Shown piece after piece: positions 11,350 through 45,131 of a DNA stretch of 64,000 bases. Positions within the stretch are counted from its first letter, which is position 1; each line of letters starts with the position of its first letter. This stretch comes from Lama guanicoe (Eukaryota). A program made the translations under genes and the position numbers. The stretch covers positions 728,972 to 792,971 of the forward strand of contig MU055458.1 of the NCBI GenBank assembly GCA_013239625.1, read 5' to 3'. The notes beneath the pieces were generated by a model that saw only the letters and a program-made list of their open reading frames with translations, was not told where the DNA came from and did no database searches.

Positions 11350-12630
11350 CAAGCTGGGCTGCGGAGGGCAAGGGATTCCCGCGCCATCCACAGGTAATGA
11401 GTCCCCAGCGCAGGAAGGGGCCGGGGAAGCCTGCAATTTGCCTGCCTCTGGCGCCCGCCCGCCCGTTTTCCAGCCTCTTCTGCCAAATGAGAAGTCGCAC
11501 ATGGGGTCCTCAGAACTGCCAGGCTGTCCGTCCCCTCCCCCTCCAGGGAAAAGCAGAAAGGACGAACAACTAAGTGTGTAGAGGCAGCCCACCCGACAAC
11601 GCCGCCGCGGCCCCGCCCGCGCCGAGCCTCTCTGTCCCGTCCCTATCACTCTGCGGTGGGGCAAAGTGCTGGCCCAGCTCAGGGCTCCGAGCAGGCCCCG
11701 CGCTCACAAAGCCCGGGCACCATCTTCCCGCCCCCGCACAGCAGCTATTTATAGCTGGGGAAGCACCGCGCGGGGCGCCGCTGCCCACCCCCGGCCCGCT
11801 CACCATCCCCGGGAGCGGCCGGTGTAGCTCCGGGTCGGGTCCGCGCCGCCCGCCGCGAAGTTGCTGGGTCGGCGCGGTGAGCGGCTTTCGCTTTCGCGCG
11901 GCCGGCGCAGCGCACACCCCCGCGCGCCCACTTGCGGCCCCGGCTGGGTCGGCTGGGCTCACCCGGGGCTCGCTGGCTGGCTTGTCCCCCGGGCCGCCGC
12001 CCACCCCCTTACGTCGCCCCGGCCCGCCCGCCGCCCACCTGGCGCTGTGCGGGGCGCCGGCCGTGGGCAGGGGGCGCCTCGGCCCCGCCGCCAGCGACTT
12101 CCTCCGCAGCGGCGCCCGGGAAACCGCGGCCCGCGGGCTTCCTGCTGCGCCAGGCGGGCCAGGAGTCGGGTGGGGGGCGTCCGCCCGAGGCGGCCCCGAG
12201 GACTGAGCCAAAGCTCCGGAGGGCGGAGAGCCGAGCAGGGAGAGGGAAGAGACGGTGGCGGCCCCGGGCAAGTTCCTACCCGCCGGCCCCGCCGTGGCAT
12301 CGGTGCAGCGGAGCTAGGGCGGGCGCCGGGCCATGGCGCGGAGGCTCGCTTGCTCGCGGCGGGCCGGGGCGGGGCGGCAGGGCCGGACGGGGCGCGGGCG
12401 CTCGCTCGCTGCTCGGCCTGGAAGCCGGCCCAGCGGCACAACTGACTTTGCCGGCCAATCCTCGCGGGTTCCGGGCCGGCGCGGCGGTGATACCGGGGGC
12501 ACAGCCCTCTCCGCGAGACTGTGGGACCGGGCATCCCAGACATAGCAGGTTAGGGGCGGCCGGGAGTGCGGAGGGACCAGCGATAAGAGGCCAGCGCCGC
12601 ACCAGGCTGGGCTGCCGTCCTCACCCTGCA
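11350..12630. promoter_or_regulatory. Intronic CpG island, candidate internal CABIN1 promoter
   Basis: Very high GC and CpG density against CpG-depleted flanks; GC box GGGGCGGGGC 12366-12375, CCAAT 12455-12459, E2F-type TTTCGCGC 11892-11899, MEF2/TATA-like CTATTTATAG 11745-11754. Confidence 0.85.
11745..11754. promoter_or_regulatory. MEF2 consensus site CTATTTATAG
   Basis: Exact CTA(A/T)4TAG; the only AT-rich block in the CpG island core. Confidence 0.65.
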
Positions 12631-15600
12631 CGGGGTACCTCTGTGAACGGTCCCCTGGAGTTGTGCCCTGAGGGCCCTGTGCCAGGCAGAGGTGTGGGTG
12701 CGGGGGGCACTCAGCCAAATAGAGCAGTCCTCACTGCTCCGGTGGGGCTGTGGGGGTTGGAGTGAAGAGGAGGGCAGGACACAGAGCCCAGTGTCCCCGA
12801 GTGGGCTTTCCAACTGGGAGGGGCCTTGTTTTACACTGGGCTGTGAGGCCCAGCAAGCAGAGGGCACTGGGCAGAGGAGTGGGAGCGGCAGGGCTGGGCA
12901 GAAGCCAGGTAGGCGCAGGATCCCCCCAGCCTCTGCATCTGGCAGGGGATGATGCCCATTCTAAGACAAGGATGCCCCCACAGTGCCTTCCTCTCTGGTT
13001 TGCTGTGGTGCAGATGGCCCTGGAATTGTCCACCTACTCCTAGAAGCTTCTGCCCCAGCTGAGAGGCCAAGCAAAGGCAGGGCAGGGCTGGATGGAGACA
13101 CGCTGCCCCCAGCCCTGGTCAGGCACCATGCCCCCACAGTCACTTCTCTCTCACACCTCAGCACCATGAGCGCCTGGCTCTGTCCTCCTTCCCAACACAC
13201 CCAGCAGCCTCAGAGCCACCTGGCCCCTATCCTGGTGACACCTGACCTAATGACATCTCCCCAAGCCAGGTGGTTTCCACCTTTCTACCCAGGTTCCTGC
13301 ACCAGCTTTCCCATACTTGCCACATGCCCCTACCCCTTCAGCCAGGGAGATGTCACACTCTCTGCCTGCCCTCCTTCCTGGGGACACCAGGGCAGTGTCT
13401 CACACTCCCTGGAGGACCACACCTGGATTCCCAGAGGTCATGCAGGGAGGCAGCCACCTCGAGGCGGTGCCCATTGAGGGCTAGGTCTTAGGCAAGGGGT
13501 TCTCAAGCCACATGTCCTTAAGTCACAATAGTCACCTACTGTCCATACTGAGTCATCATGACACCCACACGTGGAAACAGACTCAGAGTGACATGGCAGT
13601 AAGTCCAGTGTGGCCAAGACCACCCCCAGGCCTGGCCGGCTCTAGAGAGGGTAGGGACACTCCCCCACCGGCTGTCCCCAAGGCTGGAGCAGACCCAGGA
13701 CGCTTGTGCCCTGCACAGCTCACAGCCTCCCTTCATACCTCATCCTTTTCCTGTGAGGTCAAGTCAGACCCAGGGAGGCTGAGGACACATGCTCGTCACA
13801 CCTAGGCCAGGAAGAAATGATCTGTGTTGTGTGTGGATCCCCAGAAACCATATGGTGCGCACCAAGGCCTGGGGTGGGTGTGGGTGGCCCAGGGTGGGTG
13901 AGGGGAGCTCAGGGGTGAGGGGAGAGGTGCCCTGGGTGAACGCTGGCTCCTGGCACCACGAGATGCCCTGCACTTGAGCCGTTTGTGCTAGCCTCTCCAG
14001 AGTTGAGACAGGCACCATCTCCAGCCAACATGCCACCAAACAGGGAGGTGAAGACTCCTCCCTGAACCTCAGGGGTATGTGCTTCTTTGCACAAGAGCCA
14101 CCCCTTAGAGCTTCTAATCAACGCGCTGTGATGCGGGGGACTGGTGGGCCTGGAGAACTTCTGGGGCCTGAAAGAATCTTGTGCCCTATGCAGCACCCTA
14201 TGCAGGAGAGTCTGTGGGTTCTAGAAGCCCACAAAGCACTTGGTCATGCAGGACACAGGCCCCAGACTGCTACCTGGGAGAAACAGTCACTCAGCCACCT
14301 CAGGCTACCCCCGAGCACAGTGCCACCCATGGGGCCACCCCACGGCCAGCAGGAGCCCCATGAGCAGGGAGGTACTGGCTGTTCTGGGTTCATCCTGGGG
14401 GTGGGGGTGTCCCTGTCCACCTGCCTGGGCACTAAAGGGTGTGTTCCTGTTCCTGGAGTCACTCTTGTCACTGGCCAAGTCACAGCAAGTGCCGGGGGAC
14501 TGCCTGAGCCTGGACAGGCTCCCAGGAGGAGGATGGATATAGTGGTGGGTACTCAGCCTGGGGCGGAAGACGTGCCCAGCATCTAAGAAGCCCCTCACCC
14601 TCAGGGCAGGATGAATCTCCCACTATCAGGGTGCACCCTCTACCCCACTGCCTCTCCAAGGGACACGCAACCTTAAACCTCCCAGAGCAAACGTCAACAA
14701 TCCATCCTAAGAGGAAAACAAACTCAGGGCATCACCTAATCACCACGAGGGCTGCCCCTGTTCATCCTCTGCACCGCAGCCACTTCTGAGATGCACAGTG
14801 CCTGCTGCTCTAAGGATGACACACGTGCACCCTCCTGGTGGCTGCAGAGATGGAGCTGAGAGCTGGCCATCTGGGGGCCCAGGGACAGTTGCCGAAGCCA
14901 GATGCAGCCAGAGAAGGTGAGGCCAGACAGCCATGGCCTTGTCTGTGTGGGCACCCCTGGCAGGGGCAGTGGGGGTGAGGAGGAGGGGGCCGGAGGCTAA
15001 GTCCAGACTGTCTTGAGATATTGATGTCAAGTGAGGGGCAACAGAAGACTAACAGTGGCCTTGAGGAAGAGGCTCATATACGTTCATGAGGGGAAGGAAG
15101 ACTCCAAGGCCAAGAGGCACATGGTGGACCTGGGAGAGGAAGCCAGCCTGAAGGGCGAATGTGTGCAATACTCCAAGCCCACGCCCAGGGCGGCTAGCAG
15201 ACAGCTTGGGGCAGCTCACACTGGTTGGCAGCACAGCTCCCTGAGCAGCCACAGTCCTCCTTGGAAACATGCACCTGGCCTTTGGCTCACGTGCTGGTGA
15301 GGGTGAGCCTGCCACAGGCCCGCATCCCCAGCGAGGTGGGCTCCCAGTCCTGCAAAGCCAAGGCCCTGACCCAGAGGTGGCTGCTGCCCAAGGTGCTACC
15401 TGCTGAGCTGCTAGGGGGTGGGGTGGGGGAACCACGTGGCCCTCGCGGCCACCTCTTCTCAAGACCTGAGCCCACACAGACCTGCAGGTTGCTCCTGGTT
15501 CCTCCTGCCGGAAGTTACCCCAGCACCCTCCATCCCCATTCTAACCCCGGTCTTCCCCAGGCTGGGTCCAGTGCTGCCTTTCAGGCAGCAAGGACGCTTT

Positions 15601-18529
15601 CTGGAGTCAACAGTCCAAATTCTCAGTGCCGGCGGTTGAAGTTGCCAGCTGGTCTGGAGGCACAGGCCTCCCTGCTGTGGACACTGGCTCTGTGCACCAC
15701 GTGCCTGGACAACCTCTCTGCCGAGAGCATGCCAGCCAGAGATGGCTGGGCCTCAGTCCCACGCCACCCAGCTTCCTTCTGGTGCACAGACCCAGCCACA
15801 GGCTTGCTACATTCTCCCTGGAGCCTCGCCTGGGCTCTGAAGCTGCAAAGTGTCTCTGACGTCACTGAGTCCAGCTGCTCTGCCTATCTGACCCACGAGC
15901 AAGGACACAGGCAGGGAACAGGGAAATGACCTGCCCAGGGAAACACAGAAGGTTGAGTGCCAGGACCCCGTCCCTGGGTCTGGGGCCACGTCTGCTGCAG
16001 CAGCTGTGCCCATGCCACACTCGGCTCCATGGGGACGAGCACATGAGCCCCTGGTGTGCACGCATCCCCACCAGGGCCTGAGCTAGAGGGCCTGCCTTGG
16101 CCCCAGTACCACGAGGCGGAGCCGGGGTCTTGGTCGCGGATGCCAATGGGCAGACACTGACATGGCTGTGGCCCGAGTCGGCCTGGCTCACCCGCACTTC
16201 CAGCACAGCTCAGGGCTCAGAAGCAGAGCTGGCCACTGAGGGAGAGAAACGAGGGTGAGGTGGGGGAAGAAGTGGCCAGTGTCTAGGGTGCATGCTGATG
16301 GACAGTGAGCTCCCCATATCAGGGGAGCGGGGAACAGAGGGGAAACGGGCGAGGGGCCTGGGCAATCAGGGTTGGCCAGTGGGCCCATGTGGAGGGCGGG
16401 CAAGGGTTTAGTGTGTGCAGTGGGGCTGCTGTATGCGGCCTCCGTGTAAAGAGGGATTGCATGGGCCTGGGGAAGGGGCAGGGTGGAGAGAAGCCAGCAG
16501 ACTCTGAAGCCTCGGGCTGATCTGGGACTCGGGGTGTGTTTGATGGGACCCACGAGAGCCTCCTTGGAGCAAGAGGATGATAACCCTGGCTCCTGCGAGT
16601 CTGTCCCATGTCAGGGTAGAAGCGAGAGCCGCTGCCCAGGCTTCTAGAATAGCCCACACTTTGGAGGGCTGCTGAGCTGCTACCGTTTCATCTCAGGAGG
16701 GGAGCCCGCATCCTAGAAAAGCCATGTCTGACATGCACGCTGAGAAAACTAGGACAGCCCGTCCATTGTCTGACCCCTGGTCCCCAACGAACGGCCTCTC
16801 TGGGCCTCCAAGTGGGCTGCTGAGTGCGTGGGGCAAGGCTGAGGCCACAAGTGGGGCAGTGGCCTTGGCCTGTGCCAGATGTCTTACCTGGATGACCTGC
16901 ACAGGATCCTCGTGCAGGGAGGGGCTGAGCTGAAGGGGCAGCAGTGACCAGGCACTGATCACAAAAGAGAGCCGACGTTCCAGAAGCCGGCACCTGCACG
17001 GGCCTTCGGGTCCTGAGGTGGCTCACAGCCGCCGCGGCTCAAGCCCACCGCCTCCTCCAGACCCTTCAAACCTCATGTAGATTATAAGGGGAACGAACTT
17101 GTCCAGGCTTGTCCTGCAGAGCAGGGCTGAGCGCCTAATCTGCAGAGGTGCCCCCAAACCAGAACAGATTCTGGTGTGACCAGAAGCCACGACCCCAGCA
17201 CAGCACCCTTCCCTCCTCTAGAGCCACACGCAGCATCTGCTAAGGCCCAGGGGCCTCCCACTGTACTGTGGGAACAGGACAAAGACTGCCCCTAGGAGGG
17301 GGGCCACCATTCAGAGCTCACCACACCTGTGGGACACTCCTGCTGGCCGGCAGCGGAACTTCCAAAGGCCTAAGTTTGCGTGCAGCCCACACTGCACCGT
17401 GTGTCTGGTCACCCCGTGGCCAGAACTCACCCTCCCCCACATGCCCCTCTGGCTCTTCTCGGTCCACCTGTGCACTCTGGAATCTCTCCAGGCACCTTCT
17501 TCAGGTCCACCCTCCAAGCTGCACAGCCCTCGACCACAGCACTCTGCCCTGGAACCCTGCAGTAGTCCCACCTAGGCAGGACAGAGGCAGCCTGCTGACT
17601 GTGGATGCAGGTGGCCCTATTGATGGCGCGATCTGCTCTCTCCAGGATCTAGGGCTGCCTGCATCCAGCCCAGTGCTGACCCGCACATCCCACTGTCCTC
17701 CTGTGCTCCTCCCTCCTGGAACACCTTTGCCCCAGTCTATCCAATAGTCTTGCCAACCCCAAGGTCAGTCCAGGTCACTAGGAGTGTTCCGGATCACCTG
17801 CCTCCTTCCTCCTGCTGTGGCTGGTCGACACTCCTCTCCTGCACCCTTAGCACCCAGAGACTCACCCAGGGTGCCGGGGTGCTGCTCACACCCAGCCTGA
17901 CGAGGAGGTGAAGCTGGGGAGAGGGCTCCTGCAGGTTCAGGGCCCTCCCTCTGAGGGCTCACTGTGCCACTGGGAAGGGCCCGGGTCTGAGCTGAGCATG
18001 GCCTGGAGCCTGGGGCTCCCCAGCCCTCCTCTGAGGGGTACCAAGTGGGTTCCTCTCTGGAAATAAAGCCCAGTGCTGAGCCAAGGGGACCAGGGGGGGG
18101 CCTCCCCCACAGCCCAGAGCTGACCCTCGCTCGTACTTTCTGAGCAAATCTGCCAATGTCCCCATGTAGGGGACAGGGTCTGGGAGTCTGTGCCACAGCT
18201 GATGATAGTCTGGGGTCGCTGGGAAAGGTCCACGTGCCCTGGCACATCCTAATTTTAGACTAAATTTAGACACACATTTAGAGGTCAGCTTTCCCAAATT
18301 TATGTTTTTAATCAACTAAACTACTGCATGTCCTTCAAGGGCCTTCCCAGTTGGCCCTTATCCACCTCACCTCCTCCCCAGTGACCCTCATCACCCTTGT
18401 GCTCTCATCCACAAGCTCCCCCGCCCTGCTCCCTCGTCCTCCTGCAAGGGTCCTGACCCTGTCATACAATGGCCCAGGGCACACAGCAGTAATGGTCTTC
18501 CCCGATCCTCGATAACCCCCTGAAGTAGG

Positions 18530-18605: not shown

Positions 18606-21439
18606 TTTAGGAGGGACAAGCATGGCGCAGGGCCCAGGCTGGCGGGAAAGCAGAGCGAAGCCGTGGGCAGCCCACGTGTGTGAGGTCTGGGCCTGCGCCT
18701 GCGAGGGAGTCCTTGCTCCGCCCTCCCCTGGCGCTCAGGGGCCACAGCTTGTCACTATGGAAACCAGGCAGGGGCTCCTGGAGCCCGCAGCTCTGGTTTG
18801 GATTTCAAACCCAATGCCGCTCTCTCAGGAGCAACTTGTCAAACTTTCCAAATAGGAAATGTGGAAAGAAAAGAGAAAAATTTCCAGTTTGAAGCCACCC
18901 TAGAAAGATGGCCTGGCCTCTGAGCCTGGGAAGCCTTGTCTGGGTCAGCAGAGCGGTGGCAGTGCAGAGAACCTGCAGCCTCCCTGGGCTCCTGCCCCTC
19001 CTTCCAGGGAGCTGGCGGGTGGGTGTGCGGCTGGGCAGGTGGGCCCGCCCTTCCTGTCTCTGCTGAGCAGCTGCCCGTTCGTGTTTGCTGGTGGATGTGT
19101 GAGAAAGGGTTCTTTGGAAAAAGGGCTGGAAAACCACTGACCTCATCCAGCTGTCCCACCCTTGGAGATGGGGAAACTGAGGTCAGAAGGGGCAAGGACC
19201 AGGAAGTCAACAGCAGGGCAGGGTCACCAGGCCCAGAGCAGGTTCCCAAAGGATCTGCAGGTCAGCCCAACGTGGACCCCAGGCTGTGGCCCCCGAGTCC
19301 TGCCAGGCTCCGGGCCTCCTGCTGTCCACAAGCCCCAGCCACACATACAGAGGCTCCTGGAGCAAAGCCCCACACAGGGCAACCCTGCTATTATGCACAG
19401 CAAAGGAAGGGAGCCCTCGGGCCAGAGTGTAACCTTCAACCCTGGGGCTCGAGGGCACTCAGGGCCCCAGAGAACCTCAGGTGGCCCCAGGTTCACGAGA
19501 ACCTCCCCACCCCCCGACAAGCAATCCCAGGCAGCCTGGCCATGTGAGACACTCCCGAACTGGAGCAAGCGCAGTGGTCGCGCCTGGGCCATGTCCTGAA
19601 CACCAGGCTGCTCCCTGGGCCTCAGGTGTGTGGCTTGTGGCCACCTCGACACAGTTGGGATCAGAGGGCCCTCGAGTGCCAGGTGCTGGGCACTCACATC
19701 CCCACCTCACAGACAATGAGACTGGGTCTGTGTGGGGACCTGGCACCCTGGCTCAGCCAGAGGCACCAGGCCTCCAGGGCATCCTAGCAGGAAGCAGAGA
19801 GCTCTGGCTCAGCCCCCAGCCTACCACTCCCTGGCTTGGTGGTTCAGGGCTTGGTGGCTCAAGGCCTCACCTCTAAACACGGTAACGTGACGCCCCTCTC
19901 TCTCCCCTGCCAAGCTTGGATGTGGCCAACTCATCGAGGCCAGGCAAACAGGAAGACACCAGGCACCATGGCCATGCAGAGTGGGCTCTAGCCTCCAATA
20001 CTGCCAGGCTGGGTGCAGTCTGGGTGTGGGCAGGTGGTGGGCAGGGGGCTCGGAGAGGCACTCCAGCTCTGATCCTCACAGGCTGCGTAATGCTGGCCTC
20101 TGCTCGCTCATTGCTCATCATGAGGTGGGAATACAGGGCCATGGGGAGGAGGAAATGGGAGCATCGGGGCGGCGTCTGCCACCCCCGAGATCCTCTGCGT
20201 CCCAGGGAAGCCAGCGGGGGGGCCTCCATCCACTCGGCAGAGGCCCACTCACTGACATGCTTTCCCACCTCAGCTTAGGAGCCAGGCCACATCCACCACC
20301 CTCCCACAGGCCAGAGTCACAGGGAGGGCCTGCGTGGGGAGGGAGCCCCAGTGCTCTGAGGACAATGCAGAGACCCGGCACAGAGGTCTCTGGAGCCCCT
20401 CTTCCTCTCAGCCCTGGGATGGGCCCCCGCAGCCCCTGCCCGGCCAGTCCTGCAGCCTCAGCTGACACAGGCCTCCTGTAGCCCTCCCCACGCTCCCAGC
20501 CATCCCTGGTCTGGGCCTGCCCTGCTCTGCTGCCCAAAGGCTCATGAGGGCCCCACACCTCCTCCCGGAAGTGCACCCCCTGCTGCCCTCAGAATCAGGT
20601 GCTGCCCCTCCAGGGATAGAGGTCAGACCTCCATCCAGGCTGAGCCGCTCACATGCCTCAGAAAGATGCAGCAGGGTCGCCTACTCCAGGAACAAGCCTT
20701 TGAGCAAAGAAGGTGACACTGGAAACGTCCTCCTGTCAGGAAAGTTACACAGCAAGCTCTGGACAGGGGCTGTTCTGGACACGGATGCGGACAGTGCAGT
20801 CCTCTGGGCTGGCCAGAAACTGGCGTGGAGGCGCCTGCAGGATGTGGGCCAGGGCTAGTCCTGCTATGTAGGTCGCCTGGCAAGGACCGGCACAGCGGGG
20901 TGGCAAATGCTAAGGGCTGATGAACACTGCCTTCCTCTGCCCAAGCATCCCAGCACGGCCTCCATGGGGCCCACACCAGGACACAGGGCTGCCTCCGTGG
21001 GCCAGGCCAGATGCACGTGGGGAGGACGTCGAGAGGCTGCTTATGTCACGTTCTAGCTGTGAACGCTAGCTCTGAACAGGGGAGCTTGGCCTGGGCAGAG
21101 GTTTAAGACTGCTGTGGTACTGTCAGGCCAGGGGCCTGGGCATCCCATGGCCTTGTCCCTGCCTGGTACCCACAGACAGAGGGGCCTGGCTGGGGACAGA
21201 ATGGTCTTCACACCTGCTCTTGGCTGAGCCTGGCCCAGTAGGCCGGAAGCTGAGAAGTCCCACGAAGCTTGCAGGGCCCAGGACACAGGAAGGAAGGAGA
21301 GTCAGAGCTAAGCAAAGAAGCCACAAGTTTGCTAACCTTTTAAAGACTTAAAAACTGGGCCTTTTTCCCCCAGAGAACTTGAAGTGATTCTTTTGTTTAC
21401 TCTGCTTTTGCAACCGGCCCAGAGATCATCTCAACAACG

Positions 21440-21582
21440 CTAAAAATAGCACCAAGGCAGCAATTCCTACTACTAAGCAGCCAAGCCGAGGAGCTCGTGT
21501 TTCCCCAATTTAAACTTTTCCCTTCCTTCTTGCTCTCTAATTCCCACCGTCGCAACTGGGCTTCCTTTAACCTGACGTCAGG
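21440..21582. promoter_or_regulatory. Candidate enhancer: MEF2 site CTAAAAATAG (21440-21449) plus full CRE TGACGTCA (21573-21580)
   Basis: Both motifs are exact consensus matches; CpG is locally enriched over ~21480-21830. Confidence 0.55.
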
Positions 21583-22853
21583 GCAGTAACCCGCCACAGT
21601 CCCCTCCATCGAGGGCAAGGCCGGGAAGAGAGGCCCGGATGGGGCAGCCGTTGGTGACAACAAATCCCAGACAGCTTCTTCCCGGCGTCAGTCAACGTCG
21701 GTGCGTGGAGCTGAGCCTCTCTTGGGGAAATGGTGGGCTGAGGGGCCGTGGGCCTCTGGGGCATACTGGCGCCCCACTCGAGCACAGACGCAGGTCCGCA
21801 CGCGGGGCAGGCGCGTGGGACGGTGGGCCTGGTGTGCCAGAGCAGGGCTGAGCTGCAGGCCAGGCTCCCCAGCCCACCTCTGCCTGCGCCCACACATCCC
21901 CTGTCCTTCCAGCCCCGCCTGGATCCCAGCTCAGGCACCCACTTGCCGTGTGGCTGAGTCTCAGTTTCCTCACCTATAACGCAGCAAAGATGGTATCCAC
22001 AGAAGTCAAGAGCGGTGTGTGCAGCAGTGCCCGGAGGCACGGCAGGTCGGCTGGCCCCTCCCGCCCATCCTCCACCCCAGCCCCTCTGCCCTGTGAGAAA
22101 GCCTACATTCCAGGCAGGGCCCAGCGGTGTCCAGCACCTGCCTCTGTGTGCCCGCAGCCCCCACCGGCCCCCACAGGGCTCCTGCTGCCTCCTCTGCTCA
22201 GAAGCCCAGCCCTGCTCTGTGGTGTAGGCATCTCCCATGTCACCTCCTCCACCTTCTCAGCCTCCTACTCATGGGACCTCTGGTCACTCCTGTGGAGGGA
22301 GGTGGTTTATTCAGGCCTGGGGGTCTCAAAGAGCACGTGTGCAAAAGTGACTGCAACAGTGAGGCAGGCAGGCTGACACCTGCCAGAGGAGGCAGCCTGG
22401 GGCAGGGCTGGAGGGCCTAAAGAAGCCGGTGTGAGCTTGGGAAGGCTGGACTGTGCAGTGATGCTGTGCATGGAAGAGCCTGGGAGGGGACCCCAGAAGG
22501 GATGCCCAAGCAGTATGTTTTAAAAGGCTGAGGAAGGCACTGAGGGAGGCCGGAGCATGGAGGGACTTACCTGTGGCTTCAACAGACCTGCCTCGTCCCC
22601 ACGTCCCCACACTCCTTCCCCATCTACCCAGCTCCACCAGACCCACTGCAAGCTCAAACTCAGGCTGTGGCCGCCGCCCGCCCACACAGCCGGGGAAGCA
22701 GGCACAGTGCTGACTGGGCCTGTACTCCCTTCACGGTGGCTGGAAACTGGGTTGAAACAAGAAAAAAGCCCTGCCTGCTAAAATCAGTGAACATTTTGGG
22801 GAGGGAGGCAGGGCCACCTCTGGCTTGGTTACTGTGGGAACAATTAAAAAAAG

Positions 22854-22940
22854 TTTTTTTGATGGAGGTACTAGGGATTGAAGCCAGGACCTCGTGCATG
22901 CTAAGCAGGCGTTCTACCACTTGAACTATTCTCCACCCCC
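22854..22940 (-). mobile_element. tRNA-Ala-derived SINE, camelid (Vic-1-like), short form
   Basis: Minus strand GGGGTGGAGAATAGTTCAAGTGGTAGAACGCCTGCTTAGCATGCACGAGGTCCTGGCTTCAATCCCTAGTACCTCC followed by an A-rich tail; degenerate A and B boxes. Confidence 0.8.
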
Positions 22941-39960: not shown

Positions 39961-42900
39961 AAACAAACTGTGCTTTGTCCTGAACTTGGCATCTCTAAAG
40001 GTGAAGCACAGTTACATGGGGCTGCCCGTGCCATATGACCTTGAACAGGTCAGTCCCAGCCCCACCTGTGAGTTGCCACCACATATCATCTCCGAGAGGC
40101 CAGTGAGGCTACGGGGAGAAAGGCAGATATGCCCCCAGGCCTAAGCCAATGTTTGGTATTGACTCCCAACTTGCTGATGCCTAGAGAGGGCACCAGGTGG
40201 GCAGGCAAGGCAGCGGACACACCAGGGATGGTGTGGGCAGGAAGGTGGCACTCTGCCCCCAAGGATGAATTGTGGGGCTCGGCTGACCCTCCTTTAGAAC
40301 AGCATCGAGGGCCACCAGAGAGCCGTCCTGCATGGCTGGCACTCATGGCTGTGTTCCCCCTACCACCTCAGCCAGCATGTGGGGCCATGGAGCGGCCCAC
40401 ACTGAGGGTGTCCTGGCCCCTGTCCTGCCGCGGGGCCGCTCAGTTGCAGAGCCTGACTCCGCCCAGGACAGGCGGGCCCCTGGGGACCAGCCACTGCCCA
40501 GGCCCCTGCAGGAAAGAGGGTAGCCCCAGCAGGCAGCCCTCTTCTTCTTCCAGAAGCCCATCCACACAAGACCTGCTCCCGCTAATTACTAGTGAGGCCC
40601 GGTTATAAACAGTCCACTCTCACTGTGAATCCCTGGAGCGTTCACTTCCATGCCTCGGGCTGCTCCACCCCTTCGCAGCATTCTTAGAGGGACGCGCACC
40701 AGTCTGACGGCTGCTCCTCAGCCCTCTGCTCCAGGTGGGCCCACAGCCCGGTGTCAGGGAACGGAGCAGGGTGCAGAGGTCACAGCTGGCCTGTCTCACC
40801 AGGTCTTTCCTTATGCAGATTTGACTCAATTCAAATCCCCTGGACACTCAGGATTTCCAGACCAGCCTAAAAGAGTTCTCTCGTGACAAGACAGAAGTTT
40901 CCTGTTGTGTTTTCTCCACTGGCTCCAGCAGGATGACTAGAAAGGGTTCACAGCCACCTAGTTCATTAGCTCAACTCCATGACATTTTGAGGAAAAAAGC
41001 ATGTGGTCATGTGATCAAAAATGCAGCAACTCTGGCTAGTGAACCCTAAAAAGATCACGAATGTTCTGCCAACCAGAAAACCACAGGTTTCTAAGAGCAG
41101 TAAATTTGGGTGGAATCAATATTTTGAGAAATGTTTCAGTCGGATAAAATCTGCTCATGTGGTCCCTGATGACCACTGGGAAAGGACTCGCCCCCTGGAG
41201 TGAGGCTGGCTGTGGGGCGGGTGCCCTGCAGGCCAAGGAGAAGGAACAGACGCACACAGGGAGAGACACCAGAAGCCCGGGCCCCAATGCCCAGCATGGA
41301 GAGATGGTCTCACTGCGCGCCCCCTGGCCACACCCCCACCACACACCACTCTGCTCCCCGGGCCAGCTAGATGCTGACCAGAGAGGCCTGGGCAGCTGCT
41401 CTCGACGCTGATGCCAGGAAAGCAAAGCGGCATCCCACAGCTACCTGATGAGGGTCCCAGGTTCCTCTTCCAACAAAGGACGACTGGGGAAACCTGCCCT
41501 TCTTAGAGCCAGAGAGAGAGACCCCAAAACCACAGCACTCCCCTGCTGTCCACAGGGAAGACTCTGCTCGGGCCCAGCTGGCTCCCAAGCTCCCTCCCCT
41601 CCAGGTCTCTCTTCACCTAAGTGGTCACCTTGGCATCTAAATACCACAGGACTCTCCAACCTCTGTGTTTTTGCTCCCATTGCCCCTCCCCCAAAATGAC
41701 CCTGCAGGCCTCTCTGGAGGCCCACCTCCTCCAGGAAGTCCTCCCAATGCACCCAACCCCAGAGCCAGCTCACAGCACTCCCACTTGGCACCAAACATTG
41801 CCCCAGGGACACACAGATCTCACCAGGTAGCACAATTAGGGCGAAAATGCCATGACCAGCTACAGCCTGAAGATGTTTTTTAAAAGATGAGAATGAAGGA
41901 GAAAACAAAGAAGGTGATAGGCTCTGCCCTCTGACAGACTCCTTCCCTGGCCCAGCACCAGTCCCACCCTATGGGAACACCCCTGACAACCTGAGCTCAC
42001 ATGGAGATGGTCCCTGGGGCCCACCACAGAGCACCCTGGACCCTACATACAGTGAGTGCTTTCACACACCATCCTTGTAAGGCAAGGTGGCATCTCAGAG
42101 TCTCAGGTCTCTGTTACTTTTTTAACCAAGAAAGAACAAAGCAATGGAAATATAGGGCTGAGCTACTGGCCGGACAGGAGGGCAGACCGTGTGGGGAGGC
42201 CAGCACTGCACGTGTGTCTGGCCAGAACCAGGAAGATGGGCCGTGGGCAGAAGCCAAGCACATCAAACACACACCCTCCAAACCACAGGACCAGCGGGTG
42301 GCGGCGCTCCGGGTCACGGGGAAGCAGGGAGCCGGACTGAGGGTCAGCATGCGGTCAGCTCGGTCCCCGAAGCGAGCTGAGACAGTGCGAGCAGAGGCAG
42401 CCTGGAGAGCAGTGTGGGCGGGTTGGGGCAGCACGGGCAATATTGGTGGAGAAAGGTAGGCGAGCGGGCGAGGACGAGCACGGATGGGACACAACACGGA
42501 CGGTGAGGGTGACAGCATGGCAGGTGAGGATGGATGGTCGCTCCCGCTCTCCTGACCGTGGCTGGCCTGCCCACCCCCGTGAGCTCCAACACACCCCTAA
42601 GACACTGGCTGAGCTTTGCCCCTCGGGAAGGCCTCCCCCCACCAAGGCCAGGTCCCCATGGGACCCTCCGCTGTTCCATCGCTCACACGTGTCTCCTGGT
42701 GCCCACCACAGGGACCAGGGCAATGTAAGGGGTGCCCAGATTGGCACGGCCACAGGCTGGCTGGAGAACCCCGCCCGCAAGGCTCTTTCTGGCTCCAGCA
42801 TCAGAGGTGACAGGCAGCACATCCTGCAGAAAGCGAGGGTCCTCCCACGCTAAGCTAATTGTTAAGATAATGATTAATTGTCAAGCTGGAGCTATTTTCC

Positions 42901-43295: not shown

Positions 43296-45131
43296 CATTG
43301 CCAAGCAAGTGAGGGGAAGGACTGGGACTGGCACTCAGATCCCTGACTCCAGGGCCTGCTCTGCCGGGCCTCCCTGTCCAACCTCAAGTGGGGCCCCAAA
43401 CCCCACCCCCACCTGCTCCTCTTCGCCTGCAGCAAGGCGAGGCACACCCAGCATCCTGACCGCAGAAGGGCTCCCCTCTGGTGCGCATCCTCGCACAACA
43501 GGAGAGCCGAGGCTGGTCTCAGGCTGGGGAGTTGACTGGGAAGCAGGAGGCCACAGGCTCTCGTCCTAATGCCTGGTCAGCCAACCCCAGCTGGGGCACA
43601 AGAGGCAGAAAGAGAGTTGGGTGGTGTGGCCCCTCGAGGCTCCAGCATGTCCCCCAACATCAGCAACCTGCTGCTTCTGCCGGGGGCCAGGGCCCTTCCT
43701 TGGAGCTGGAAAGGCTGCCCAAAGGCCACTGTCACGTTACAAGATTATAGCTAGCTTAGGGTCCCGAACATCTCCACATTGCGGACACTGCTTTCTCCCC
43801 AGGGTGAGGGGTGAGAGCTCCAAAGGCCTGCACAGCCAAGCTGGGTGAGGACACCGGCTGGGACCAGCAAAGGCAGGCCAAGCGATCTCGATGGCCCCAC
43901 ACCACCGACAAGAATCAATGCCAAAAAATTTTTACCACCATTCAAAAATACACAACCATGGAAATTATATTTCAGCATATTCACACGGCTTCCTCTACAA
44001 ACTTCCAGAACCGGACACACTCTGGTGGCACCCAGGACAGGTCCCACCAGCACCTGCCCCCAGCACCCTGCTTCCACAGCTCTGCGCACACACGGGTGCC
44101 CGGGCGGGATGCTGGCAGTGGTGTGGGGCGGCGGCACGGCCCTCCCCCAAACCCAGGAGGCTCAGGGACACCCTGAGAGGAGAGCCTCTCTCCCCACACC
44201 TGCCTGCACTAAAGCCTCACAGGAAGGAAGAATCCTGCAGGAAGAACTCCCAGAGCAAGGACTTGTCTCCAGCATGCTTTTCAGTGTTCTCAGGAGTAAA
44301 TGGTTGGGGAGTCCTTGAACCTGAGGTGAGTAGGAGGGAAGGATCAGGACCAGGACCACAGTGCAGGCAGCAGGTGGGCCAGTGCCCCGGCCAGGCACAA
44401 CCCCTGTGGCCCATGCTCAGACTGGTCTCTGCGCACACACCATCCCGAACCCAGAGGAGACATCACCAGCGTCCTCTGCTCTCAGATCACAAACTGCACC
44501 CCGGGAAGTGAGGCCCTGCCTCCCTGTCGCCCTACAGCAGTCCTGCCCTGGCCCTGTGCTCACAGCCTGTCTCCTGGGCGCGCGCACGCAGCCTGATGAG
44601 CTGAGTGACACAGGGCTAAGGGCCCAGATGGCCTTCAGCACTGTCACTCCCCCAGGGCTCCACGCTGCGGCCCTCCAGGCCCACCAGTCTGGTTCATCGT
44701 TTTAACAGTGAGGAGAATGTGAAGACGGAGCTGTGAGGCCAGCATGCAAGCCTCCCGGTGTTAGTCAGGGATATGGTGGACGGGCCGCCATCTGCCCATC
44801 CCGCGTGGGAAGCCAGCTGACCCCCACCACCAACCCGCCCGGATTCCCTCGACCCTCCCCGACCGTCAGAAGGACGTGCTATTCCTGCGGACACCAACAG
44901 CCTTTCAACTGCCCTTAACGTCCCCATTTTGCAGGTGGGGAAATGCAGATCGGAGGGCTCCCAGGCGGGCGGTGGCAGGCGGCGACCCCGAGCATGTCTG
45001 GGAAGCACAGGATCACGAGGGTCCATGAGGTTAATGAGCAGCCGCAACATTGCCCGTGTCACCCCAGACCCAGCACCCCCCTCACCAAAACAAAGCGACT
45101 CATTGCCCAAAGCGCCCTCCCCCGAGACTGG

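What the first reader, a model, noticed from the sequence alone, without database searches (positions are those of the whole stretch)
21430..21830. MEF2 plus CRE module about 9.6 kb upstream of the internal promoter
Seen: GCTAAAAATAGC (core 21440-21449, near-optimal MEF2) and the 12-bp palindrome CCTGACGTCAGG (21571-21582, full CRE) within ~140 bp. A half-CRE (CGTCA) follows near 21686, and the CpG-retaining patch suggests low germline methylation. Known: MEF2 and CREB are both calcium/calcineurin-responsive (CREB via CRTC). Inference: an activity-dependent enhancer for the short isoform, or a second internal start.
Basis: partly seen in the sequence, partly recalled or inferred. Interest (0 to 1): 0.7.

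Follow-up and report, generated by a model that had tools for sequence, protein, structure and literature searches.

The report
MEF2-CREB enhancer inside a CABIN1 intron
A short stretch inside an intron of the CABIN1 gene carries a perfect MEF2 site and a full CREB site, and is likely an enhancer that would use calcium and cAMP signals to switch on a short CABIN1 form, which in turn would dampen MEF2 and calcineurin.

Summary
The motifs are real. The window is the 3' half of mammalian CABIN1 (minus strand). The element lies in a 22-kb intron, 9.1 kb upstream of the short isoform's start codon at 12300. A MEF2 site with a CRE at this spacing occurs 4 times in 2.05 Gb. In human AML lines the strongest of 4 CABIN1 MEF2D peaks lies 10.1 kb upstream of the presumed internal-promoter peak (window 9.4-9.7 kb). 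That match is by position only. Weak parts: the CpGs still decay, the half-CRE is chance-level, and nothing supports a second start. CREB binding, inducibility and the target promoter are untested. Total Cabin1 mRNA did not change on Mef2a knockdown. Verdict: a likely MEF2-bound intronic enhancer of a known kind, possibly the input of an undescribed MEF2-to-short-CABIN1 feedback loop.

The parts
21232..21487 (.). Conserved core: 256 bp with no listed difference from a relative about 3% diverged; holds the MEF2 site
   Evidence: P(any run >=256) 0.009-0.014; 16 of 56 differences were not listed and are placed outside this block by inference from word shares
21440..21449 (+). Optimal MEF2 site CTAAAAATAG
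   Evidence: intact in the relative
21394..21400 (+). Forkhead-type motif TGTTTAC inside the conserved core (label recalled)
   Evidence: function untested
21573..21580 (.). Full CRE TGACGTCA within the 12-bp palindrome 21571-21582
   Evidence: intact in the relative, inside a 67-bp stretch without listed change
21686..21690 (-). Half-CRE, chance-level
   Evidence: 40 strand-hits in the window
21401..21870 (.). CpG-retaining patch (o/e 0.62-0.74) whose CpGs are still decaying
11411..12680 (.). Intragenic CpG island, the inferred internal promoter of short CABIN1
   Evidence: 1270 bp, o/e 0.86, 152 CpG
12280..12300 (-). Coding end of the short-isoform first exon, MPRRGRR, followed by a GT donor
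   Evidence: 18 of 120 listed homologues start MPRxxxx-GIWRIP
12314..12334 (-). 6-codon upstream ORF (MARRPP) in a strong Kozak context, ending 13 nt before the main ATG
   Evidence: untested
11798..11806 (-). Candidate second first-exon end, ATG followed by GTGAGC, which would give the M-GIWRIP start
   Evidence: 14 of 120 listed homologues start MGIW(R/H)IP
11745..11754 (-). Second optimal MEF2 site CTATAAATAG in the island, downstream of both candidate donors
15857..15864 (.). Second full CRE, between the element and the island
   Evidence: not followed up

Best explanation
This is likely an intronic enhancer of CABIN1 in which MEF2 likely binds the site at 21440 and CREB/ATF1 is predicted to bind the CRE at 21573, and which would act on the CpG-island promoter 9 kb downstream that likely makes the short, about 590-aa CABIN1 isoform. 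Shown: the motifs, the island, the first-exon peptide with its donor, and the conserved block. Inferred: at rest MEF2 holds corepressors (class IIa HDACs, CABIN1 itself). A calcium or cAMP rise releases them and brings CRTC/CBP to the CRE. The enhancer then contacts the island, which has its own optimal MEF2 site, and short CABIN1 rises. The short form keeps the calcineurin- and MEF2-binding tail and lacks the N-terminal TPR region, so its rise would feed back on MEF2 and NFAT signalling.
For: Rare pair. Both optimal MEF2 sites of the 64 kb lie at the element and at the island (expected 0.03 per window). Invariant 256-bp block holding the MEF2 site. Human MEF2D ChIP (PMC8759131 Table S3): of 4 CABIN1 peaks the strongest (-log10 p 143, 20-fold; the others 9-14, 3-4-fold) has its summit 10,066 bp upstream of a broad 1.5-kb peak taken as the island. 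The window's distances are 9.4 kb (to mid-island) and 9.7 kb (to the island's MEF2 site); chance of such a placement is about 0.04. The short isoform exists: MPRxxxx-GIWRIP proteins with PF09047. The low-molecular-weight human isoform reduced NFAT and MEF2 reporters (PMC9075502 section 23). CREB1/CRTC1 co-bind MEF2-motif enhancers after neuronal stimulation (PMC12236590 section 8).
Against: Orthology with the human peak is by position only. The assembly (hg19) and the island's human place are recalled, not read. No CREB or CRTC occupancy was found: 0 hits in the supplements of PMC3671974 (liver CREB peaks, searched by gene name only) and PMC6656544 (no peak table held). Gene-level Cabin1 was unchanged by Mef2a siRNA in C2C12 (normalised counts 1945, 2050 against 1989, 2208; p 0.68); this is not isoform-resolved. 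Conservation was tested against one close relative only. At 3% divergence the three motifs survive by chance with P 0.41. The CRE half diverges at the background rate. MEF2-CRE pairs are not enriched genome-wide (4 against 15 control). MEF2D can repress at enhancers.
Confidence: 0.5

Rival explanations
1. A constitutive, lineage-type MEF2 (plus forkhead) enhancer of the internal promoter. The CRE is incidental and the element is not signal-induced.
For: The invariant block covers the MEF2 site and TGTTTAC but stops 85 bp short of the CRE. The human peak comes from AML lines with no stimulation described in the section read. A full CRE is expected 0.23 times per window and occurs twice.
Against: The CRE's CpG is intact in the relative while 5 of 26 CpGs of the patch are not. 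The pair is rare.
Confidence: 0.22
2. A real enhancer whose main target is another promoter: the main CABIN1 promoter (more than 55 kb away) or the next gene downstream (SUSD2 by recalled domain pattern, start about 28 kb away).
For: The CABIN1 5' exons extend to contig 807.5 kb against 750.4 kb for the element. A signal-peptide/AMOP/vWD/sushi gene starts about 2.5 kb past the CABIN1 stop (labels recalled). No contact data were seen.
Against: The island is the nearest promoter and carries the only other optimal MEF2 site.
Confidence: 0.13
3. A chance pairing of two motifs in a locally slow, AT-richer stretch, with no regulatory role.
For: The pair was picked after the fact. The genome holds 510 copies of the MEF2 12-mer and 95 of the CRE 12-mer. 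Clustered substitutions can mimic one long invariant run.
Against: Context-weighted simulations still give P 0.009-0.014. The strong human MEF2D peak lies at the matching distance.
Confidence: 0.1
4. A second internal promoter or alternative first exon.
For: A CpG-rich patch with a CRE. Five donor-like sites above 6 bits lie on the minus strand in 20400-21900.
Against: No joint or end at the element in 4 of 4 RNA runs; in 2 of them one contig spans the whole 1851 bp. The database short isoforms match island exons. No TATA or GC-box match in 21200-21850.
Confidence: 0.05

Closest known systems
Activity-dependent CREB/CRTC1 + MEF2C enhancers in neurons (PMC12236590, abstract and section 8 read); Arc SARE (recalled; paper not held)
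   Same: MEF2 and CRE motifs within about 150 bp at a distal intronic site.
   Different: No SRF/CArG box (0 in the window). The CRE is full, not half. Occupancy and induction are not shown here.
MEF2-driven HDAC9/MITR negative feedback (recalled; paper not held). PMC5413110 passages list CABIN1 and HDAC9 as MEF2 repressors
   Same: MEF2 sites control a gene for a MEF2 corepressor.
   Different: Here the input would be a distal intronic enhancer plus an island site, for a truncated isoform that also inhibits calcineurin.
RCAN1.4, an NFAT-driven alternative-promoter isoform of a calcineurin inhibitor (recalled)
   Same: An internal promoter yields a calcineurin-inhibitor isoform, plausibly under calcium control.
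   Different: MEF2/CRE input rather than an NFAT site cluster; 0 WGGAAAW matches in 20400-22900.
CABIN1 intronic muscle module of PMC3228787 (section 26 read; hg18 chr22:22883584-22884017, 2 of 4 wells positive)
   Same: A regulatory element in the same CABIN1 intron.
   Different: By a recalled hg18-to-hg19 offset it lies just downstream of the island, about 11.5 kb from the strong MEF2D peak, so it is a different element.

Membership tests
MEF2-bound enhancer | Consensus MEF2 site | tested here: met
MEF2-bound enhancer | Sequence constraint | tested here: inconclusive
   Invariant 256-bp block against one relative, P about 0.01; no distant mammal available
MEF2-bound enhancer | MEF2 occupancy | tested here: inconclusive
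   Strong human MEF2D peak at the matching distance; a mouse MEF2A peak that could not be anchored; orthology by position only
MEF2-bound enhancer | Open chromatin, H3K27ac or reporter activity | not testable with these tools
   None of the 12 runs listed was ChIP or ATAC
Activity-dependent CREB+MEF2 enhancer (SARE-like) | CRE near the MEF2 site | tested here: met
Activity-dependent CREB+MEF2 enhancer (SARE-like) | CREB/CRTC occupancy | tested here: inconclusive
   No hit in 2 CREB/CRTC supplements; one held no peak table and one was liver, searched by gene name
Activity-dependent CREB+MEF2 enhancer (SARE-like) | SRF/CArG site (strict SARE) | tested here: not met
   0 CArG boxes in the window
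Activity-dependent CREB+MEF2 enhancer (SARE-like) | Stimulus-induced target transcription | not testable with these tools
   No stimulated data were available
Unmethylated orphan CpG island | >=200 bp, GC >=50%, CpG o/e >=0.6 | tested here: met
Unmethylated orphan CpG island | CpGs protected from deamination in the germline | tested here: not met
   5 of 26 CpGs read TpG/CpA in the relative, 5.6 times the other-site rate; lower than the flanks (6 of 16) but p 0.28
Alternative promoter / first exon | 5' ends or spliced reads from the element | tested here: inconclusive
   None in 4 of 4 RNA contig sets; contigs cannot show starts
Repeat-derived motif pair | Multi-copy in the genome | tested here: not met
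   One match, the element itself (the search skips very common words)

The most novel reading that the evidence does not exclude
CABIN1 holds a built-in, vertebrate-old feedback module. MEF2, with CREB, drives an internal promoter through this enhancer and the island's own MEF2 site. The product is a short CABIN1 that carries only the calcineurin- and MEF2-inhibiting tail, so calcium signalling induces its own brake separately from the HIRA histone-chaperone form.
Probability: 0.35. Interest if true: 0.62.

Novelty: new member of a known kind. Interest (0 to 1): 0.42.

Why it matters
CABIN1 is described as a ubiquitously expressed inhibitor controlled at the protein level (PMC2193671 passages). 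It is altered in 30% of ocular adnexal marginal zone lymphomas, and two isoforms are seen in lymphoma lines (PMC9075502). I found nothing on what controls the short isoform in the searches. If this element drives it, MEF2/calcineurin signalling has a transcriptional brake like HDAC9 or RCAN1.4. Deleting about 400 bp would then separate CABIN1's signalling role from its chaperone role, and gene-level RNA counts would have hidden the regulation.

Tried and rejected
TATA reading of 11745-11754: rejected, because the site lies downstream of both candidate first-exon donors. Repeat origin: single copy. A processed CABIN1 retrocopy on contig C2129 was checked for the short first exon; it is 5'-truncated to about 1.2 kb and uninformative. 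Earlier scan notes: 5 look-ups, none on this gene or element. Supplement searches without a usable row: PMC4802763 (none held), PMC6874310 (969 characters), PMC3671974, PMC6656544 (5,323 characters), PMC8934631 (expression tables). Peak tables that I could not see, including bioRxiv supplements such as that of PMC12236590, may hold CREB/CRTC peaks here. PMC4350514 passages gave only a 5' promoter DMR. The mouse MEF2A peak at +87,332 from the TSS (mm10 chr10:75676903-75677148, 22 tags, FDR column 100) is about 31 kb from the recalled gene end, like the human peak, but it could not be anchored to the mouse island and is kept as a lead only. RNA runs hold the element, but contigs from RNA libraries do not show transcription. 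No reads were laid on the island, so its first exons have no RNA support from this species. The papers on HDAC9 feedback and on SARE were not held.

Full report
Setting. A 223-aa exon of the window finds CABIN1 in mammals, birds, reptiles and fish (136 hits, 120 listed). tblastn places the exons on the minus strand from 62.8 kb down to 1.3 kb and on into the neighbouring 10 kb. A genome search places the two exons that flank the element at about 27.1-27.3 kb and 4.8-5.0 kb, so the element sits in an intron of about 22 kb. The SINE-like tail at 22860 looks camelid to me (recalled; no call names the species). The element is single-copy.

The internal promoter. The island spans 11411-12680 (o/e 0.86). 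Of the 120 listed homologues, 18 start MPRxxxx-GIWRIP, among them human, dog, lion, donkey and bats, and 14 start MGIW(R/H)IP, mostly fish plus a snake and unnamed transcript contigs. The window encodes MPRRGRR at 12300-12280 followed by a GT donor. It also has an ATG directly followed by GTGAGC at 11806, which would give the M-GIWRIP start. Many database models may be projected from human, so 18 is not 18 independent observations. PMC9075502 (passages and section 23 part 1 read) reports two isoforms in marginal-zone lymphoma lines and shows that the small one lowers NFAT and MEF2 reporters. So a short isoform is known, and its first exon maps to this island by inference. The CTATAAATAG at 11754-11745 lies downstream of both donors and is better read as a MEF2 site than as a TATA box.

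Observation. All motifs are at the stated coordinates. The window has 2 optimal MEF2 12-mers, one here and one in the island; 0.03 are expected under a Markov-4 model trained on the window. It has 2 full CREs against 0.23 expected. No pair within 200 bp arose in 300 simulated windows. Genome-wide the same geometry occurs 4 times in 2.05 Gb against 15 for the reversed control, which lacks the CpG. The pair is therefore rare, about 1 in 600 windows, but it is not an enriched genomic grammar and it was chosen after the fact. The half-CRE adds nothing, and the CC/GG flanks of the palindrome have no role known to me.

Conservation. One run search returned 12 RNA-type runs from 4 studies, with a best word share of 0.58. 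I laid 4 of the 12 on 20650-22500. They come from a relative with 56 substitutions and 2 indels in 1851 bp. The table lists 40 of the 56. None lies in 21232-21487, and none touches the MEF2 site, the CRE or the half-CRE. The 16 unlisted ones are placed outside that block by inference: the listed set predicts word shares of 0.56 and 0.12 against 0.58 and 0.14 observed, and one extra change at 21300 would give 0.07. In simulations with four mutation weightings a run of 256 bp or more arose with P 0.009-0.014 anywhere and 0.0015-0.005 around the MEF2 site. Against this: it is one species pair, the three motifs survive by chance with P 0.41, and 21488-21830 diverges at 3.8%. The patch is CpG-rich but not clearly protected. 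There are no joints or ends at the element; the loose ends lie outside it, at 21954-22415, and belong to short unrelated matches.

Occupancy in other mammals. PMC8759131 (passages, section 15 and four supplement rows read) lists 4 CABIN1 peaks among 33,239 MEF2D peaks in MOLM-13 and MV4-11 cells: the promoter (-log10 p 14.5), 24,450,387 (8.9), 24,542,204 (143; 20-fold) and a broad peak at 24,551,657-24,553,149 (13.9). The main text names no assembly. I take hg19, and the last peak as the island, from recall. The strong summit is 9.45 and 10.9 kb from that peak's edges; in the window the MEF2 site is 8.8 and 10.0 kb from the island's edges. The chance that one of two non-island gene-body peaks falls within 1.5 kb of the expected place is about 0.04. 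This is the best evidence for MEF2 binding, but no sequences were aligned. PMC4191398 (passages and supplement rows) has 2 MEF2A peaks in mouse Cabin1. One may be the same element but could not be anchored, and gene-level Cabin1 did not move on Mef2a siRNA (p 0.68). No CREB evidence was found. PMC3228787 (section 26) validated, in 2 of 4 wells, a different CABIN1 intronic module near the island.

Mechanism. Shown: the motifs, the island, the first-exon peptide and the conserved block. From the literature read: calcium/calmodulin releases CABIN1-SIN3A from DNA-bound MEF2 (PMC9075502 passages), and stimulation recruits CRTC1/CREB1 to MEF2-motif enhancers (PMC12236590 abstract and section 8). Inferred: this element integrates both inputs, contacts the island and raises short CABIN1, which closes a negative loop. 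My odds: a real MEF2-bound enhancer about 0.8-0.85; the whole model, including the CRE input and the short-isoform target, about 0.5. The rivals are a constitutive MEF2/forkhead enhancer (0.22), another target promoter (0.13), chance (0.10) and a second start (0.05).

Novelty. MEF2+CREB enhancers and MEF2-corepressor feedback are known kinds (HDAC9, SARE and RCAN1.4 are recalled; the first two papers were not held). Ten full-text searches (listings seen) showed no paper on this enhancer or on the control of the short isoform, but most subscription journals are outside the library. It is a new member of a known kind, with a testable feedback hypothesis. Interest 0.42.

Noticed in passing
window 11798-11806 and 12280-12300, minus strand: Two candidate first exons in the island match the two short-isoform starts in the databases (MPRxxxx in mammals; M-GIWRIP in fish, a snake and transcript contigs), which suggests that the short CABIN1 isoform is as old as bony vertebrates.
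   Followed up: partly
window 12314-12334, minus strand: A 6-codon uORF in a strong Kozak context ends 13 nt before the short-isoform ATG and may limit its translation.
   Followed up: no
window 11745-11754: A perfect MEF2 site with matching CAG/CTG flanks lies 50 bp into the intron after the M-exon donor; the human island region has a weak MEF2D peak.
   Followed up: partly
window 15857-15864 and 18249-18269: A second full CRE and two adjacent CTA(W4)TAG matches lie between the element and the island.
   Followed up: no
L008:2080-3263 (G000:C2129): A processed, 5'-truncated CABIN1 retrocopy, about 86-90% identical to the last exons and 3' UTR, with stops.
   Followed up: yes
L002:175-3767 and L003:7866-9943, minus strand: The next gene (signal peptide, AMOP-, vWD- and sushi-like exons; SUSD2 by recall) starts about 2.5 kb after the CABIN1 stop codon.
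   Followed up: partly
window 42181-42630 and 44671-45070: Two more CpG-retaining intronic patches of similar size and o/e (0.60-0.63) as the element.
   Followed up: no
L006 (G000:C6178): One of the other three genome-wide MEF2+CRE pairs also sits in CpG-rich DNA (o/e 0.64).
   Followed up: no
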